A stretch of DNA of 41,072 nucleotides from Kagunavirus LF7074P1. Of this stretch, positions 1-41,072 are shown piece after piece. The stretch's first letter is position 1, and each line of letters starts with the position of its first letter. The notes beneath the pieces were generated by a model. It had not been told where the DNA came from. It saw only the letters and a list, made by a program, of their open reading frames with translations, and searched no databases. The position numbers and the translations under genes are program-made. The stretch lies in sequence record OZ035752.1, one strand, 5' to 3'.

Positions 1-29
1 GTAACAACGAATATGGGCGAGGTAGAGGA

Positions 30-1280
30 ATGAGTATTCAGCTATCCGCCCCTCAGGCACTGTTCCTGAATTGTGACAATAAATACAAGGCCTACGTCGG
101 TGGCTTCGGCAGCGGCAAGACGTTTGTCGGCTGTCTTGACCTGCTTACATTTATGCTCAAGCACCCCGGTACGCGCCTCGGATACTTCGGCCCGACATAT
201 CCGGCTATCCGTGACATCTTCTACCCGACATTTGAGGAAGCCGCTAACCTGCTCGGCCTCGATGTGCTGGTTAAATCTGGCGACAAAGAAGTCGTGGTTA
301 CTCGCGGTAAGACGGTGCTCGGTACAGTTATCTGCCGTTCTATGGATAACCCAGGCTCGATAGTCGGCTTCAAAATCGCTGCTGCGGTCGTGGATGAGCT
401 TGATGTATTGAGCCGTGAGAAAGCTGAGCTGGCGTGGAACAAAATAGTCGCCCGTATGCGTCTGGTTATCCCCGGCGTAACTAACCACATCTCTGTCACC
501 ACGACACCGGAAGGGTTCAAGTTCGTCTACGCCAAGTTCAAAGAGAACCCGACGCCGAGTTACTCGATGGTGCAGGCTTCTACACACGAGAACGCGCGAT
601 TCCTGCCGCCTGACTACATTAGCTCACTGACCGAGACTTACCCCGCGCAACTGATTAACGCGTACCTGAACGGTGAGTTCGTTAACCTGACATCCGGCAG
701 CGTGTATTATGCGTATGACCGTCGCAAGCACCGCAGCAAAGAGACAATTCAACCTGGCGATACACTGTACATCGGGCAGGACTTCAACGTTACGAAGAAC
801 GCCAGCGCCGTGTATGTGCAACGTAAAGACGGCTGGCACGCGGTGGCAGAACTGAAAGGTCTGTTTGATACGCCGGACACCGTGCGTGTAATTACTGAGA
901 AGTGGAAGTCGCAGGGCCACCGCATAGTCGTTTACCCGGACGCCAGCGGCAAGAACCGCAAGACCAACTCGGCGTCAATCTCAGATATTGCGTTACTCCA
1001 GCAGGCCGGTTTCGATGTTCGCGCTAAATCCGCCAACCCTCCGGTTAAAGACCGTGTTTTAGCCGTGAATACTGCACTGGAAAAAGGTAAGCTGTGGGTT
1101 AATGACCACTTATGCCCCGAGATAGCGAAGACGCTGGAGCAGCAGGCATACGATGATAACGGAGAGCCAGCTAAAGACGGCATCATTGACCATATGGCGG
1201 ATGCTCTCGGCTATCCTGTAGTTTACGAGATGCCGGTGGCTAAACCAGTAATCAACATCCCGGTGACTTTCGCACTTTAA
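30..1280 (+). CDS. terL: terminase large subunit
   Basis: 416-aa ORF; Walker A P-loop GGFGSGKTF near N-terminus; RBS GAGGA before ATG; portal-sized ORF follows; TerS-like ORF at right end of window. Confidence 0.85.
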   Translation: MSIQLSAPQALFLNCDNKYKAYVGGFGSGKTFVGCLDLLTFMLKHPGTRLGYFGPTYPAIRDIFYPTFEEAANLLGLDVLVKSGDKEVVVTRGKTVLGTVICRSMDNPGSIVGFKIAAAVVDELDVLSREKAELAWNKIVARMRLVIPGVTNHISVTTTPEGFKFVYAKFKENPTPSYSMVQASTHENARFLPPDYISSLTETYPAQLINAYLNGEFVNLTSGSVYYAYDRRKHRSKETIQPGDTLYIGQDFNVTKNASAVYVQRKDGWHAVAELKGLFDTPDTVRVITEKWKSQGHRIVVYPDASGKNRKTNSASISDIALLQQAGFDVRAKSANPPVKDRVLAVNTALEKGKLWVNDHLCPEIAKTLEQQAYDDNGEPAKDGIIDHMADALGYPVVYEMPVAKPVINIPVTFAL

Positions 1281-2795: not shown

Positions 2796-2816
2796 AGCCC
2801 CGAAAGGGGCTTTCTT
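2796..2816 (+). terminator. terminator-like hairpin
   Basis: AGCCCC-GAAA-GGGGCT stem-loop followed by TTCTT; same stem-loop recurs at 4364-4381. Confidence 0.45.
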
Positions 2817-4657: not shown

Positions 4658-4683
4658 GCCCCGCTTTAAGGCGGGGCTTTACT
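4658..4683 (+). terminator. terminator-like hairpin upstream of Rz-like gene
   Basis: GCCCCGC-TTTAAG-GCGGGGC stem-loop followed by TTTACTT. Confidence 0.5.
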
Positions 4684-4701: not shown

Positions 4702-5088
4702 ATGAATCTTAAAGCAACTGTCGTAGCGGGAGCATGTTTCATCATCCTGGCTTACGCACACGGCATCTACCAGTATCGCAGCGGCTGGAACGGAGGCCGG
4801 GCGAATCTCGTTTCGCAGCAACAGCAGAAAGCACAGGCTGAGTTAGCTAAGAAAACACAACGGCAGCGGCAGGATGAATCGAAGGCCGCCGCCGCTGATA
4901 ACGAAGGCAAGACGAAATCAGAGGTAATCACCCGTGAAGTCGTTAAGTACATTAAAACGCCTGGCCGCAGCGTGTGCACTTTTGACCCTGAGCGCGTGCA
5001 GCTCAAGTCCCGCGCCGTCGCAAACGCCAATTCCATCCCCGGATACGACGATGATGCAGCCGCCGTGCAAACTGGCACTGCCAAGTAA
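4702..5088 (+). CDS. Rz-like inner-membrane spanin (putative)
   Basis: 128 aa; RBS AAAGGGGAAA; single N-terminal TM segment (TVVAGACFIILAYAHGIY) then Q/A/K/E-rich region; overlapped by +1-frame lipoprotein ORF. Confidence 0.6.
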   Translation: MNLKATVVAGACFIILAYAHGIYQYRSGWNGGRANLVSQQQQKAQAELAKKTQRQRQDESKAAAADNEGKTKSEVITREVVKYIKTPGRSVCTFDPERVQLKSRAVANANSIPGYDDDAAAVQTGTAK

Positions 5089-10573: not shown

Positions 10574-10600
10574 AAGGCCCCGTTTGGGGCCTTTTTTTTT
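10574..10600. terminator. bidirectional intrinsic terminator
   Basis: AAGGCCCC-GTTT-GGGGCCTT stem-loop followed by T9; between convergent genes; exact reverse-complement copy at 23108-23127. Confidence 0.8.
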
Positions 10601-23107: not shown

Positions 23108-23130
23108 AAGGCCCCAAACGGGGCCTTTTC
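23108..23130. terminator. bidirectional intrinsic terminator
   Basis: AAGGCCCC-AAAC-GGGGCCTT followed by TTTTC; between convergent tailspike and replication genes. Confidence 0.75.
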
Positions 23131-25429: not shown

Positions 25430-25717
25430 TTAACTATAATAGCCCGCTATTAGGTCGTCAACCTGTTTAAACGAACCAACGACAAAAACATTTGCACCAC
25501 GTTTACGCATCCGCTCGTGCTCTCGTAACTGGTGCGGGTCCGGCTTCGTGTTTTCGTCTTTCTTAACCTCGACGAACCAGATGATGCCACCAGGGAGAAT
25601 TACCAGCAGGTCGGGGGCGCCCGCTCTATTTTCGTACGACAATTTGCGTACGAGGCCTCCCAGGGCCTCGAATCGCTCTTTTGCGTATTTCTGCACGCGC
25701 CCCTCAGGCGTACTCAT
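25430..25717 (-). CDS. VRR-NUC domain nuclease (putative)
   Basis: 95 aa; PD-(D/E)xK-type residues in APDLLVI..FVEVKK. Confidence 0.6.
   Translation of the reverse strand: MSTPEGRVQKYAKERFEALGGLVRKLSYENRAGAPDLLVILPGGIIWFVEVKKDENTKPDPHQLREHERMRKRGANVFVVGSFKQVDDLIAGYYS
25433..25461 (-). promoter_or_regulatory. sigma70-like promoter with palindromic operator
   Basis: minus-strand TTGACG-17 bp-TATAGT; operator AATAG-N4-CTATT at 25438-25451; overlaps 3' end of VRR-NUC gene. Confidence 0.5.
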
Positions 25718-28920: not shown

Positions 28921-28949
28921 ACTATAATAGCTAACTATTCAGGTGTCAA
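28921..28949 (-). promoter_or_regulatory. sigma70-like promoter with palindromic operator
   Basis: minus-strand TTGACA-17 bp-TATAGT; operator AATAG-N4-CTATT at 28926-28939. Confidence 0.55.
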
Positions 28950-31422: not shown

Positions 31423-31451
31423 ACTATAATAGCGAACTATTCACTTGTCAA
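31423..31451 (-). promoter_or_regulatory. sigma70-like promoter with palindromic operator
   Basis: minus-strand TTGACA-17 bp-TATAGT; operator AATAG-N4-CTATT at 31428-31441. Confidence 0.55.
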
Positions 31452-39933: not shown

Positions 39934-40104
39934 ATGTTCAGTGACATTAACACGGCAATCGAAGAAGCAATCTGGCGCCGCTACAACGGCGAGCAACAAC
40001 GGCACTTTTGCCTGGTGCAACGCGGTGACATGGTTGCCGTAGTGCAGGACCGCGATAACAAATATCCGAATGCGATGTGGACAACGAGGAATTTTGTAGG
40101 ATGA
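39934..40104 (+). CDS. hypothetical small protein (56 aa)
   Basis: not in ORF track; stop overlaps next ATG. Confidence 0.4.
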   Translation: MFSDINTAIEEAIWRRYNGEQQRHFCLVQRGDMVAVVQDRDNKYPNAMWTTRNFVG

Positions 40105-40337
40105 TTACCAGCATTCCGAACCTGATTAAAGAATACGGCACGATGGCGGAGACATGCCGACAAACCGGCATCAACGAAATGACGATTGCGAAGTACAGCA
40201 AAGACGTTGATTGTGAGCGGCATGTAATTTATAACAACCGTCTGATGACGCACGTTAAGACAAGCCCGGTGTTATTCACGCGCCGGGGTATCACTAAAAC
40301 AGAGCAACGAATCGCTAAAGAGGAGAGCGGGGAATGA
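40101..40337 (+). CDS. hypothetical protein with HTH-like segment
   Basis: 78 aa from ATG 40101 (track 40077); TMAETCRQTGINEMTIAKY resembles a helix-turn-helix. Confidence 0.45.
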   Translation: MITSIPNLIKEYGTMAETCRQTGINEMTIAKYSKDVDCERHVIYNNRLMTHVKTSPVLFTRRGITKTEQRIAKEESGE

Positions 40338-40438: not shown

Positions 40439-40460
40439 AAGCCCTCTACGGAGGGCTTTT
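40439..40460 (+). terminator. intrinsic terminator
   Basis: AAGCCCTC-TACG-GAGGGCTT followed by TTCTGT. Confidence 0.6.
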
Positions 40461-40461
40461 C

Positions 40462-40491
40462 TGTACATCCCGCCCAATCCCCTTATATAAT
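40462..40491 (+). promoter_or_regulatory. promoter-like element upstream of terS
   Basis: TGTACA-18 bp-TATAAT (perfect -10 at 40486-40491). Confidence 0.4.
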
Positions 40492-40497
40492 CCCTTT

Positions 40498-40539
40498 AGA
40501 CGCGTAGGGCGCGTCTGATGCGCTCTGATGGTCAGACGC
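40498..40539 (+). repeat. overlapping inverted/direct repeats upstream of terS
   Basis: AGACGCG-TAGGG-CGCGTCT (40498-40516) shares arm with GCGTCTGA-n13-TCAGACGC (40511-40539); tandem GTCTGATG/CTCTGATG. Confidence 0.5.
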
Positions 40540-40556
40540 ATACGAAAGGGGATTCT

Positions 40557-41072
40557 ATGAAGCTGAAACTCAAGCAGCCATCGCCAGAGGTGGTGCAAGC
40601 TGCACATGAAGAAGCTGTTAGCGCAAACCGTCGACGTAAACGACCGCGCGGTAAACAGAGCCTTTATCAATCGTCCCGTAATTCCGCCGCGTTGTGGGAC
40701 CCGGACTATTGCGACGAATTGATTCGTTTCTTCGACCGCACGTCATGGGAGTCTATGCCGACCGGTGCACACGGAGACTACAAAGCTGTCATTGCGGACA
40801 AGCCACCGTCACTGGCCCGCTTTGCATTGCACATCGGCGTCACTATCCCGATTATTAAGTTGTGGCTGCGTGAGATTCCAGCTTTTGCAGAAGCATATGA
40901 AACAGCACAGGCGCTGGAAGAGGCATACTTCACTGAGACGGGGGCCGCGGGTATCTCCGCTACGTTTGCTGCCGCGAAGCTGGGCCTCGGTAAAGAGAAA
41001 CCAGTTGAATCTACAGAAGAAACAGCACCGACTGAGATTATTTTCAGTGTTGCAGAGCCTGTAGGTAAAATC
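40557..41072 (+). CDS. terS: terminase small subunit (partial, continues beyond window end)
   Basis: open frame of 172 codons from ATG 40557 (RBS AAAGGGGA) with no stop before window end; WDPDYCDELIRFF...PIIKLWLREIPAFAEAYETAQ resembles Terminase_2-type small subunits; would precede terL on a circular map. Confidence 0.65.
   Translation, partial: MKLKLKQPSPEVVQAAHEEAVSANRRRKRPRGKQSLYQSSRNSAALWDPDYCDELIRFFDRTSWESMPTGAHGDYKAVIADKPPSLARFALHIGVTIPIIKLWLREIPAFAEAYETAQALEEAYFTETGAAGISATFAAAKLGLGKEKPVESTEETAPTEIIFSVAEPVGKI

What the first reader, a model, noticed from the sequence alone, without database searches (positions are those of the whole stretch)
40462..40556. Mutually exclusive hairpins and tandem repeats immediately upstream of terS: candidate packaging or regulatory site
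Downstream of a terminator (40439-40460) and a perfect TATAAT, the leader of the terS-like ORF contains AGACGCG-TAGGG-CGCGTCT (40498-40516), whose right arm is also the left arm of GCGTCTGA-n13-TCAGACGC (40511-40539), plus tandem GTCTGATG/CTCTGATG. Repeats of this kind near terS are typical of TerS recognition (pac or cos-proximal) sites, or could form an RNA switch controlling terminase expression.
Basis: seen in the sequence. Interest (0 to 1): 0.4.

Follow-up and report, generated by a model that had tools for sequence, protein, structure and literature searches.

The report
Conserved structured leader RNA before terS
The repeats upstream of the small-terminase gene are real, but they are best read as a promoter followed by two conserved RNA stem-loops at the start of the phage's late messenger RNA, shared by several groups of E. 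coli and Salmonella phages and in no RNA catalogue searched, not as a DNA packaging site or a two-state hairpin switch.

Summary
The window is a complete Kagunavirus genome. terS starts at 40557 and wraps over the window end.

The two "mutually exclusive" hairpins are not a switch. The alternative helix (40511-18/40532-39) has an ensemble probability of about 2e-4 and loses a pair in Jerseyvirus.

What is conserved is this order of parts:
- an intrinsic terminator;
- an invariant TATAAT/TACAAT;
- 6-8 nt;
- hairpin 1 (40498-40516);
- hairpin 2 (40518-40541, invariant apex GAUGGUC);
- the SD and the AUG.

The layout recurs in Kaguna-, Jersey- and Cornellvirus, other Guernseyvirinae and Dhillonvirus. 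On a hand-registered alignment, 98.6% of cells pair and 13 of 19 pairs show compensatory changes. There are 38 G·U cells against 3 A·C, which points to RNA from the + strand.

A third helix pairs the -10/discriminator segment with the SD. It could form only in read-through transcripts, as at T4 gene e.

There is no Rfam match. The function of the two hairpins is inferred, not shown: 5' stabiliser, factor site, or a put-like element. A pac role is unsupported but not excluded.

The parts
40439..40460 (+). Intrinsic-terminator-like hairpin ending the upstream (lysis/nin-like) transcription unit
   Evidence: 8-bp perfect inverted repeat plus T-run. Present in every related lineage with compensatory stem changes.
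40462..40467 (+). Weak -35-like hexamer TGTACA, 18 nt upstream of the -10
   Evidence: Promoter scan, 10 of 12 matches. TTTTCTGTACA is invariant between Kaguna- and Jerseyvirus while the spacer diverges. Other lineages have TTGCCT-17-TATAAT or TGT-TATAAT.
40476..40484 (+). AATCCCCTT, upstream copy of the anti-SD segment (5' arm of outer helix P0 in read-through RNA)
   Evidence: Perfect 9-nt complement of 40546-54 (I2). Used by the MFE fold of the 145-nt RNA.
40486..40491 (+). -10 hexamer TATAAT of the predicted sigma-70 promoter of the terS-led operon
   Evidence: TATAAT or TACAAT is invariant in all 45 distinct leaders of 8 lineages, always 6-8 nt before hairpin 1.
40489..40497 (+). AATCCCTTT, second anti-SD copy. 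It overlaps the -10 and discriminator and lies just upstream of the predicted start site
   Evidence: I1 and D2. Swap test of cognate against non-cognate 5' arm and SD pairs, p about 1e-4 to 5e-4.
40498..40516 (+). Hairpin 1 (AGACGCGU-AGG-GCGCGUCU). Its first base is the predicted transcription start
   Evidence: pair probabilities 0.81-0.96. 6 of 8 pairs show compensatory changes.
40518..40541 (+). Hairpin 2 (AUGCG-C-UCUGA-UGG-UCAGA-CGCAU): outer stem, bulged C, inner stem, UGG triloop
   Evidence: 7 of 11 pairs show compensatory changes and 99-100% of cells pair.
40527..40533 (+). Invariant apex GATGGTC of hairpin 2 (one variant, GATGATC, in L008)
   Evidence: In the whole window the heptamer occurs at chance frequency (7 found, 4 expected).
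40546..40554 (+). Shine-Dalgarno segment AAGGGGATT, 3' arm of outer helix P0
   Evidence: Predicted mean unpaired probability of the SD is 0.63 in RNA starting at 40498 and 0.04 in RNA starting 60 nt upstream of the -10.
40557..41072 (+). terS, 5' part. The ORF continues at window 1-33 and its stop overlaps the terL ATG at 30
   Evidence: PHROG 3064 'terminase', E = 6.5e-70. 98% identical relatives cover residues 1-181.

Best explanation
The region is the promoter and 5' leader of the terS-headed late operon, and the conserved repeats act as RNA.

1. After an intrinsic terminator, a sigma-70-type promoter (-10 at 40486-91) is predicted to start transcription at A40498. That base is the first base of hairpin 1.
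2. The resulting mRNA begins with two independently folding stem-loops: hairpin 1 (40498-40516) and hairpin 2 (40518-40541, apex GAUGGUC). A free Shine-Dalgarno sequence and the AUG at 40557 follow.
3. A third helix (P0) pairs the DNA-encoded -10/discriminator segment (40489-97, or its copy at 40476-84) with the SD (40546-54). Its 5' arm lies upstream of the predicted start. P0 can therefore form only in RNA that reads through the upstream terminator, and there it hides the terS ribosome-binding site. This is the logic known from T4 genes e, soc, 49 and I-TevI.
4. In promoter-initiated mRNA the two stem-loops sit at the very 5' end. They most likely shield the long late mRNA from 5'-end-dependent decay. 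Through the invariant apex they may also dock a factor.

Shown: the structures, their conservation and covariation, their strand, and the promoter-like layout.
Inferred: the start site, the gating by P0, and what the two hairpins do.

My sub-estimates: conserved RNA element 0.8; promoter 0.7; P0 gating 0.5; 5' stabiliser 0.35; factor or RNA-polymerase docking 0.3.
For: Identity and spread
- The window is a whole Kagunavirus genome.
- The same layout is found in Kaguna-, Jersey- and Cornellvirus, phiEap-2, PSDA-2, Otaku, Dhillonvirus, and the L075 and L215 lineages, at TerS identities down to about 25%.
- There is one copy per genome.

Structure
- Covariance-model alignment A3: 89% of cells paired, 8 of 18 pairs with double changes, 0 of 500 shuffles reach the observed value on 4 of 5 measures.
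- Hand-registered alignment A5: 98.6% paired, 13 of 19 pairs with double changes, 0 of 500 shuffles on all 5 measures. Slid controls pair at 17-54%.
- Variation falls in loops and bulges or keeps pairing. There are 38 G·U cells against 3 A·C cells.

Selection
- Within Kagunavirus the leader is 96.7% identical. terS is 84.7% identical, and 72.6% at third codon positions.

Promoter
- TATAAT/TACAAT is invariant and sits 6-8 nt before hairpin 1 in all lineages. Lineage-specific -35 or extended -10 elements are visible.

Outer helix P0
- The MFE fold is a three-way junction in every lineage.
- Cognate 5' arm and SD pairs bind better than swapped pairs, p about 1e-4 to 5e-4.
- The L193 and L280 discriminators differ, yet both stay complementary to the same GAGGUUC.
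- The SD is predicted less accessible in read-through RNA in 10 of 11 cases, and in the window the values are 0.63 against 0.04.

Precedent
- The T4 design is described in PMC3014915.
Against: - No transcription start site has been measured. The one Kagunavirus transcriptome paper gives no 5' ends.
- The -35 is weak in Kagunavirus.
- P0 is the weakest part. Kagunavirus variants carry uncompensated mismatches in both 5'-arm copies. The predicted SD masking is small in Jersey, Otaku, L075 and Dhillon, and is reversed in L215. C-rich discriminators and G-rich SDs are complementary by composition.
- A strong terminator just upstream limits read-through, so the need for gating is unproven.
- A plain stabiliser would not need an invariant 7-nt apex, so something specific remains unexplained.
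- Alignment A5 was registered by hand to the structure and leans towards it.
Confidence: 0.55

Rival explanations
1. The two stem-loops are a miniature put-like element. The nascent RNA would bind the transcribing E. coli RNA polymerase and make it resistant to pausing and termination across the long late operon, without a phage protein.
For: - The layout matches HK022 putL: two stem-loops directly after a sigma-70 promoter at the head of a long operon (PMC9378689).
- Hairpin 1 shares AGACG and the 9-mer GGCGCGUCU with putL. The putL duplex A3GACG7/C15GUCU19 is essential and occupies the same position relative to the start.
- By my own estimate, not a tool result, the chance of such a 9-mer match is roughly 0.02.
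- The late region has internal terminator-like hairpins on the + strand at 2796-2811 and 4658-4677.
- The invariant apex suggests a conserved partner common to all hosts.
Against: - The element is 44 nt, against about 72 nt for put.
- The put signatures are absent: the triplex strand, the bulged U28, the A9-G35 platform, and the GAACGG and GUCGGG words seen in both putL and putR.
- putR has UACCG/CGGUA in place of AGACG/CGUCU, so the shared words do not define the family.
- Model R1 finds nothing in the HK022 immunity region with filters off.
Confidence: 0.15
2. The hairpins are a translational or stability operator bound by a specific RNA-binding protein, for example TerS repressing its own synthesis or another phage or host protein that recognises the NGG triloops.
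For: - The apex GAUGGUC is invariant on covarying stems, and hairpin 1 always carries an NGG triloop followed by G.
- The motif occurs only with this TerS family. It is absent from 74 loci whose TerL is 50-64% identical and whose small subunit is unrelated.
Against: - The hairpins do not overlap the SD or AUG.
- No candidate protein was identified.
- Remote TerS relatives (L076-L087) lack the motif, so the link to TerS may be plain shared ancestry.
- CsrA-type GGA motifs are not conserved.
Confidence: 0.15
3. One reading: the repeats are the pac (or cos-proximal) site, where TerS recognises the DNA to start headful packaging.
For: - pac sites of several headful phages lie in or next to terS (own knowledge: P22, Sf6, SPP1, P1).
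- Relatives package by a headful mechanism.
- The motif travels with this TerS family.
- TGATGGTCA is a near-palindrome.
Against: - The stems change sequence while keeping complementarity, and the pattern is strand-specific (38 G·U against 3 A·C cells).
- The bulges are asymmetric.
- There is a single copy of the invariant heptamer locally, and it occurs at chance frequency genome-wide.
- TerS recognition-helix residues differ between lineages while the heptamer does not.
- PhageTerm found no termini in Kagunavirus fBC-Eco01.
- The restriction pattern of Jerseyvirus K47 showed no pac fragment.
- The PhageTerm-reordered Dhillonvirus EE09 record has the leader about 26 kb from its start.
Confidence: 0.1
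4. One reading: an RNA switch in which the right arm of hairpin 1 alternates between pairing with its own left arm and with 40532-39.
For: The 8-bp alternative helix exists in this genome (I4).
Against: - The best structure containing the alternative helix is 6 kcal/mol worse, and its pair probability is about 2e-4.
- Jerseyvirus keeps hairpin 2 by a C-G to A-U double change that breaks the alternative helix.
- Dhillonvirus, Otaku, L075 and L215 have no such alternative helix.
Confidence: 0.03
5. The palindromes are DNA operators for a dimeric regulator of the late promoter, or GATGGT acts as a -10-like element that causes sigma-dependent promoter-proximal pausing.
For: - The palindromes lie at +1 to +44 of a promoter.
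- GATGGT keeps the A at position 2 and the T at position 6 of a -10 hexamer, and it is invariant.
Against: - The G·U against A·C asymmetry and the bulges argue against a DNA palindrome.
- GATGGT matches only 3 of 6 positions of TATAAT and lies at +30 to +35, later than usual for sigma-dependent pauses.
- No regulator candidate is conserved next to the site. The upstream genes differ between Guernseyvirinae and Dhillonvirus.
Confidence: 0.05

Closest known systems
T4 gene e / soc / 49 / I-TevI translation-initiation hairpins with an internal late promoter (PMC3014915); also IS10 'fold-back inhibition' (own knowledge)
   Same: An upstream segment pairs with the SD. The promoter lies in the DNA that encodes the 5' strand of that helix. 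Long upstream transcripts are therefore masked, and promoter-initiated transcripts are open.
   Different: - The promoter here is sigma-70-type (TATAAT), not T4-late (TATAAATA).
- The helix closes a three-way junction that holds two further conserved stem-loops.
- An intrinsic terminator sits immediately upstream.
- The gene is terS.
- Neither the gating nor the start site has been measured.
HK022 put RNAs (putL, putR): cis-acting antiterminator RNAs that bind the beta' zinc-binding domain
   Same: Both are two stem-loops directly downstream of a sigma-70 promoter at the head of a long phage operon. Hairpin 1 shares AGACG...GGCGCGUCU with the essential 5' duplex of putL. Both second hairpins end in a 5-bp stem with a G-rich triloop.
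   Different: This element is 44 nt, against about 72 nt. It has no triplex, no bulged U28, no A9-G35 platform and no GAACGG or GUCGGG words. It lies in a late operon of virulent siphoviruses, not in early operons of lambdoid phages. It shows no covariance-model similarity to put.
5'-terminal stabiliser stem-loops of E. coli mRNAs (ompA type; own knowledge)
   Same: The hairpin is predicted to begin at or within a base or two of the 5' end. This spacing is conserved in all lineages (6-8 nt after the -10).
   Different: There are two hairpins, with sequence-invariant apex nucleotides that a plain stabiliser would not need. The effect on half-life is untested.
pac sites of headful phages (P22, Sf6, SPP1, P1; own knowledge)
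   Same: The location is next to terS, in a phage whose relatives package by a headful mechanism.
   Different: The conservation pattern is that of an RNA secondary structure on one strand. There is no array of repeated protein-binding boxes, and no terminus has been mapped here.

Membership tests
pac / TerS recognition site | The first packaging cut or a series of virion DNA ends maps to the site | not testable with these tools
   No reads were available. The literature on relatives gives no terminus here: fBC-Eco01 has none, K47 has no pac fragment, and the EE09 terminus was called elsewhere.
pac / TerS recognition site | Double-stranded DNA sequence boxes, usually repeated, conserved as sequence and co-varying with the TerS DNA-binding domain | tested here: not met
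   There is a single invariant heptamer. The stems covary as base pairs with 38 G·U against 3 A·C cells. The heptamer is at chance frequency in the genome.
HK022 put antiterminator RNA | Transcribed just downstream of a promoter at the head of an operon that contains terminators | tested here: met
   The predicted start is at the first base of hairpin 1. Terminator-like hairpins lie at 2796 and 4658 on the + strand. The start site itself is predicted, not measured.
HK022 put antiterminator RNA | RNA of about 70 nt with a 5' duplex plus triplex, bulged U28, A9-G35 platform and a long stem II (PMC9378689) | tested here: not met
   This element is 44 nt with two simple hairpins. Only the AGACG/CGUCU duplex and a 9-mer are shared with putL.
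HK022 put antiterminator RNA | Sequence and structure similarity detectable by a covariance model | tested here: not met
   Model R1, run with filters off on the HK022 immunity region, gives no hit at putL or putR. The best E-value elsewhere is 2.9.
HK022 put antiterminator RNA | Terminator read-through that depends on the beta' zinc-binding domain | not testable with these tools
   This needs transcription assays.
RBS-occluding hairpin with an internal promoter (T4 gene e type) | A helix that pairs the SD or AUG with an upstream segment | tested here: met
   I1 and I2. Three-way-junction MFE in all lineages. Swap test p about 1e-4. The strength of masking varies between lineages.
RBS-occluding hairpin with an internal promoter (T4 gene e type) | The transcription start lies inside or after the 5' strand of the helix | tested here: inconclusive
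   The -10 is embedded in the 5' arm, and the predicted +1 (40498) is the base after it. No 5' ends have been measured.
RBS-occluding hairpin with an internal promoter (T4 gene e type) | Upstream transcripts actually extend into the gene and are poorly translated | not testable with these tools
   The terminator at 40439-60 would limit read-through. This needs RNA-seq and reporter fusions.
Two-state RNA switch (riboswitch-like) | Two mutually exclusive helices, both conserved and energetically competitive | tested here: not met
   The alternative helix has probability about 2e-4 and a 6 kcal/mol penalty. It is broken in Jerseyvirus and absent in other lineages.
Any Rfam family | A match at or near the gathering score | tested here: not met
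   No match to the leader at E up to 10 in the window, or at E up to 1 in seven related loci.
5'-terminal stabiliser stem-loop | A hairpin within a few nucleotides of the mRNA 5' end | tested here: inconclusive
   Hairpin 1 starts 6-8 nt after the -10 in all 8 lineages. This depends on the predicted start site.

The most novel reading that the evidence does not exclude
The two stem-loops are a compact, protein-independent, put-like RNA that rides on E. coli or Salmonella RNA polymerase and drives read-through of the late operon in virulent siphoviruses (Guernseyvirinae and Dhillonvirus). This would extend a mechanism so far known only from a handful of lambdoid early operons. It would also define a minimal polymerase-binding RNA: the AGACG/CGUCU 5' duplex plus a GAUGGUC-capped hairpin.
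Probability: 0.13. Interest if true: 0.8.

Novelty: new variant of a known kind. Interest (0 to 1): 0.55.

Why it matters
Hundreds of sequenced therapeutic and model coliphages and salmonella phages carry this leader. It is more conserved than the terminase gene it precedes, yet it matches no Rfam family and none of the annotated related records examined here marks it.

It marks the likely start of late transcription in phage groups whose gene regulation is essentially unstudied. One of these, Kagunavirus, is being used as a chassis for phage engineering.

If the outer helix gates translation, it shows the T4 gene-e logic reused with a host-type promoter. If the hairpins bind polymerase or a protein, they give a small, easily tested new RNA module.

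Practically, it also corrects annotation. terS starts at 40557, not at the in-frame ATG or GTG inside hairpin 2 that some GenBank records use as the gene start or the genome start.

Tried and rejected
Searches that led nowhere
- The alignment-based locus search with five TerS sequences failed because no stretch was conserved enough.
- The Otaku TerS scan found nothing.
- The TerL-profile scan returned 80 loci, five of them near-identical relatives of the window. Of the other 75, 74 with TerL 50-64% identical had neither the motif nor this TerS family. The one exception was another Kagunavirus.
Sixteen distinct chance matches fit none of the lineage signatures, and the covariance model did not match them. 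It did add the L215 lineage and the L193/L280 variants.
- A search for relatives of ChibiTotoro returned only a KLB22-like phage with a short, unstructured leader.
- Rfam gave nothing.
- A full-text search for the motif strings gave only unrelated papers.
- The Kagunavirus transcriptome paper has no 5' ends and no terminase data.

Ideas considered and dropped
1. A leader peptide or N-terminal extension from the ATG/GTG at 40518. It is in frame in Kaguna, Jersey, Cornell and phiEap-2, but not in Dhillon, L075 or Otaku.
2. A uORF from the apex AUG. Its stop overlaps the terS AUG in Kaguna and Cornell, but it ends early or runs out of frame elsewhere.
3. A boxA-like CGCUCUGA. It occurs in Kagunavirus only.
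4. CsrA-type GGA sites. They are not conserved.
5. Pairing of the apex with terS codons 8-10. It occurs in Kagunavirus only.
6. Record start positions as evidence of physical ends. Jersey records start at the in-frame ATG, and other records are opened at terS by convention.

Full report
**What the window is**

The last 773 bases are 99.6% identical to the end of Kagunavirus LF7074P1, a record of 41,071 bp, and 87-93% identical to K1G, K1H and many other Kagunavirus genomes. The window is therefore a whole, circularly closed genome.

The terS-like ORF starts at ATG 40557, runs off the window end, and finishes at bases 31-33. Its stop overlaps the terL ATG at 30. The joined protein matches PHROG 3064 'terminase' at E = 6.5e-70, and the next ORF is a T4-type large terminase.

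**Check of the observation**

- the terminator-like hairpin at 40439-58 plus a T-run;
- a perfect TATAAT at 40486-91, with TGTACA 18 nt upstream;
- the palindrome at 40498-40516;
- the overlapping inverted repeat at 40511-18/40532-39;
- TCTGATG twice, 10 nt apart.

AATCCCCTT (40476-84) and AATCCCTTT (40489-97) are both complementary to AAGGGGATT (40546-54).

Folded alone, RNA from 40498 forms two adjacent hairpins at -22.8 kcal/mol. That is only modestly better than shuffles (z = -1.75). The 145-nt stretch folds into a three-way junction with z = -4.56.

**The two reader hairpins are not alternatives**

Forcing the 40511-18/40532-39 helix costs 6 kcal/mol, and its pairs have a probability of about 2e-4. 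The pairs of hairpins 1 and 2 have probabilities of 0.72-0.96.

In Jerseyvirus the inner stem of hairpin 2 changes from UCUGA/UCAGA to UAUGA/UCAUA. This compensatory change keeps hairpin 2 and breaks the alternative helix. The more distant lineages have no such alternative helix. The tandem TCTGATG copies exist because the 3' arm of hairpin 1 and the 5' arm of hairpin 2 happen to share sequence in Kagunavirus.

**Comparative evidence**

Protein-anchored searches and GenBank records gave leaders from these groups:
- Kagunavirus, Jerseyvirus and Cornellvirus (FSL SP-031, PSDA-2);
- phiEap-2-like phages and Serratia phage Otaku;
- Dhillonvirus;
- two unnamed lineages, L075/L193/L280 and L215.

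TerS identity between these groups is only about 25-30%. All have the same order of parts:
1. a terminator;
2. an invariant TATAAT or TACAAT;
3. 6-8 mostly C-rich bases;
4. hairpin 1, 7-9 bp, starting AGA or AAG, with an NGG triloop followed by G;
5. 0-4 bases;
6. hairpin 2, with an outer stem of 3-5 bp, a bulge, an inner stem of 5-6 bp, and the apex GA-UGG-UC;
7. 10-25 bases containing the SD;
8. the terS AUG.

A covariance model built from ten representatives finds exactly one copy in the window and one in each relative.

| Alignment | Cells paired | Pairs with changes on both sides | Shuffles reaching the observed value |
|---|---|---|---|
| Model-made A3 | 89% | 8 of 18 | 0 of 500 on 4 of 5 measures |
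| Hand-registered A5, 21 distinct rows, gaps written as N | 98.6% | 13 of 19 | 0 of 500 on all 5 measures |

On A5, sliding the 3' partners drops pairing to 17-54%. A5 was fitted to the structure and leans towards it. A3 mis-registers Dhillonvirus and Otaku and leans against it. The truth lies between the two, and both are clear.

The inner stem of hairpin 2 shows three or four different Watson-Crick pairs at each of three positions under an unchanging apex.

**RNA or DNA, and which strand**

At paired positions there are 38 G·U cells and only 3 A·C cells. Within-lineage polymorphisms are A-U to G·U, G-C to G·U, or fall in loops and bulges. On the opposite strand, or in a protein-bound DNA palindrome, each G·U would be a mismatch, and A·C should be as common as G·T. 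The selected structure is therefore single-stranded and on the + strand, that is, in the terS transcript.

The leader is also under stronger constraint than the gene. Within Kagunavirus it is 96.7% identical, against 84.7% for terS and 72.6% at third codon positions.

**Promoter**

The -10 hexamer is the only upstream sequence that is invariant across all lineages. Its distance to hairpin 1 is fixed at 6-8 nt. Different lineages supply different auxiliary elements, read directly from the sequences:
- TGTACA at 18 nt;
- TTGCCT or TTGCCA at 17 nt;
- TGT-TATAAT, an extended -10.

I infer a sigma-70 promoter whose +1 is the A that opens hairpin 1 (40498). This is a prediction. No 5' end data exist.

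**The outer helix P0**

In every lineage the MFE of the sequence from the -10 to the AUG is a three-way junction. Its closing helix pairs the -10/discriminator segment with the SD.

| Lineage | 5' arm / 3' arm (SD side) |
|---|---|
| Kagunavirus | AAUCCCUUU / AAGGGGAUU |
| Jerseyvirus | CAAUCCUU / GAGGAUUG |
| PSDA-2 | AAUCUCCU / AGGAGAUU |
| phiEap-2 | UAAUC-A-CCUG / CAGG-A-GAUUA |
| L075 | GAACCU / AGGUUC |
| L280 | AACCUC / GAGGUU |
| Dhillonvirus | UAUAA-U-CCC / GGG-C-UUAUA |

In a swap test, cognate pairs bind better than non-cognate pairs (mean -8.0 against -5.4 kcal/mol, p about 1e-4). The result holds when the shared part of the -10 is left out (p about 5e-4).

The 5' arm lies upstream of the predicted start, so P0 can form only in RNA that reads through the upstream terminator. 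The predicted mean unpaired probability of the SD is 0.63 in promoter-initiated RNA and 0.04 in read-through RNA in this genome. The direction is the same in 10 of 11 representatives, but the difference is small in several and reversed in L215.

This is the design documented for T4 genes e, soc, 49 and I-TevI. There a late promoter lies in the DNA for the 5' strand of an RBS-sequestering helix (PMC3014915). I rate P0 gating at about 0.5.

**What the two hairpins do**

This is inferred. Their position at the extreme 5' end fits a 5'-terminal stabiliser (own knowledge of ompA-type leaders). The invariant apex calls for a specific partner.

The closest known system is HK022 put: two stem-loops just after PL that bind the beta' zinc-binding domain. 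I located putL and putR in the HK022 record.

- putL begins AUAGACGAACGGCGCGUCU. It shares AGACG and the 9-mer GGCGCGUCU with hairpin 1, at the same place relative to the start. The A3-G7/C15-U19 duplex is essential for put activity.
- putR has UACCG/CGGUA instead.
- The words shared by putL and putR, and the triplex, U28 and A9-G35 features, are all absent here.
- The covariance model finds nothing in HK022.

So the element is not a member of the put family as defined. It might work in a similar way, and I give that about 0.13-0.15.

**Packaging**

Relatives package by a headful mechanism:
- PhageTerm finds no fixed termini, or only a 'pac' class without a published position.
- The restriction pattern of Jerseyvirus K47 looks circular, with no pac fragment.
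- A Dhillonvirus record reordered at its PhageTerm-called end has the leader about 26 kb away.

Several Jersey records begin 39 nt before the terS ATG. That point is an in-frame ATG inside hairpin 2, so those starts are an annotation convention, not an end. The motif co-occurs with this TerS family, but remote TerS relatives lack it. None of this proves that the site has no DNA role. However, the reason for its conservation is an RNA structure, so I give the pac reading about 0.1.

**Novelty and verdict**

No Rfam family matches, and I found no description in the searchable literature.

- The SD-gating helix is a new instance of a known design.
- The pair of covarying stem-loops with an invariant apex is, as far as I could find, an undescribed conserved RNA motif. 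It is shared by Guernseyvirinae and Dhillonvirus.

Noticed in passing
window 40518-40520; L052 1042: An ATG (GTG in most Kagunavirus genomes) inside hairpin 2 is in frame with terS, 13 codons upstream. Some GenBank records use it as the terS start, and several Jerseyvirus records begin exactly there. It is out of frame in Dhillonvirus, L075 and Otaku, so the real start is 40557.
   Followed up: yes
L291 about 8330-8250 (- strand), HK022 putL, compared with window 40498-40516: putL RNA (AUAGACGAACGGCGCGUCU...) shares AGACG and the 9-mer GGCGCGUCU with hairpin 1, at the same distance from the start site. putR does not share them, so this could be chance (roughly p = 0.02 by my own estimate) or a real link.
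   Followed up: partly
L170 about 560-668 (Serratia phage ChibiTotoro): A distant TerS relative has a different leader with the same logic. Two hairpins capped CUC-UGG-GGG and CUC-AGG-GGG are enclosed by the helix CCGUGG/CCACGG, whose 3' arm runs into the SD. There is no GAUGGUC apex.
   Followed up: partly
L076 and L077, upstream of terS: Remote, AT-rich relatives have TATAAT followed directly by a terminator-like hairpin (GCGGATCGAAAGAGCCGC plus a T-run) before terS. This is a promoter-terminator arrangement, unlike the one studied here.
   Followed up: no
window 10574-10593 and 23108-23127: The same 20-nt palindromic terminator-like sequence, AAGGCCCCGTTTGGGGCCTT, occurs at two boundaries where + strand and - strand gene blocks meet.
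   Followed up: no
window 31423-31451, 28921-28949, 25433-25461 (- strand): Three near-consensus promoters with the same hexamers (TTGACA or TTGACG, 17 nt, TATAGT) precede the - strand replication-gene block. They are probably the early promoters.
   Followed up: no
window 40528-40559: A short ORF from the apex AUG (MVRRIRKGIL) ends in a UGA that overlaps the terS AUG (AUGA). Cornellvirus has the same overlap, but the ORF stops early or is out of frame in the other lineages.
   Followed up: yes
window 40077-40337: The gene just upstream of the terminator encodes an 86-aa NinH-like protein (Pfam PF06322, E = 1e-5, below the curated cutoff; PHROG 268, E = 3e-31). The upstream neighbour differs in Dhillonvirus (a phosphoesterase), so the leader travels with terS and not with this gene.
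   Followed up: partly
L061, L062, L063, L066 (Dhillonvirus records): Four independent records begin exactly at the T of TATAAT, 76-77 nt before terS. I did not check whether this reflects a shared convention or a measured end.
   Followed up: no
window 2796-2811 and 4658-4677 (+ strand): Terminator-like GC-rich hairpins lie inside the late gene block, after the portal gene and before the ORF at 4702. They matter if the leader confers read-through.
   Followed up: no
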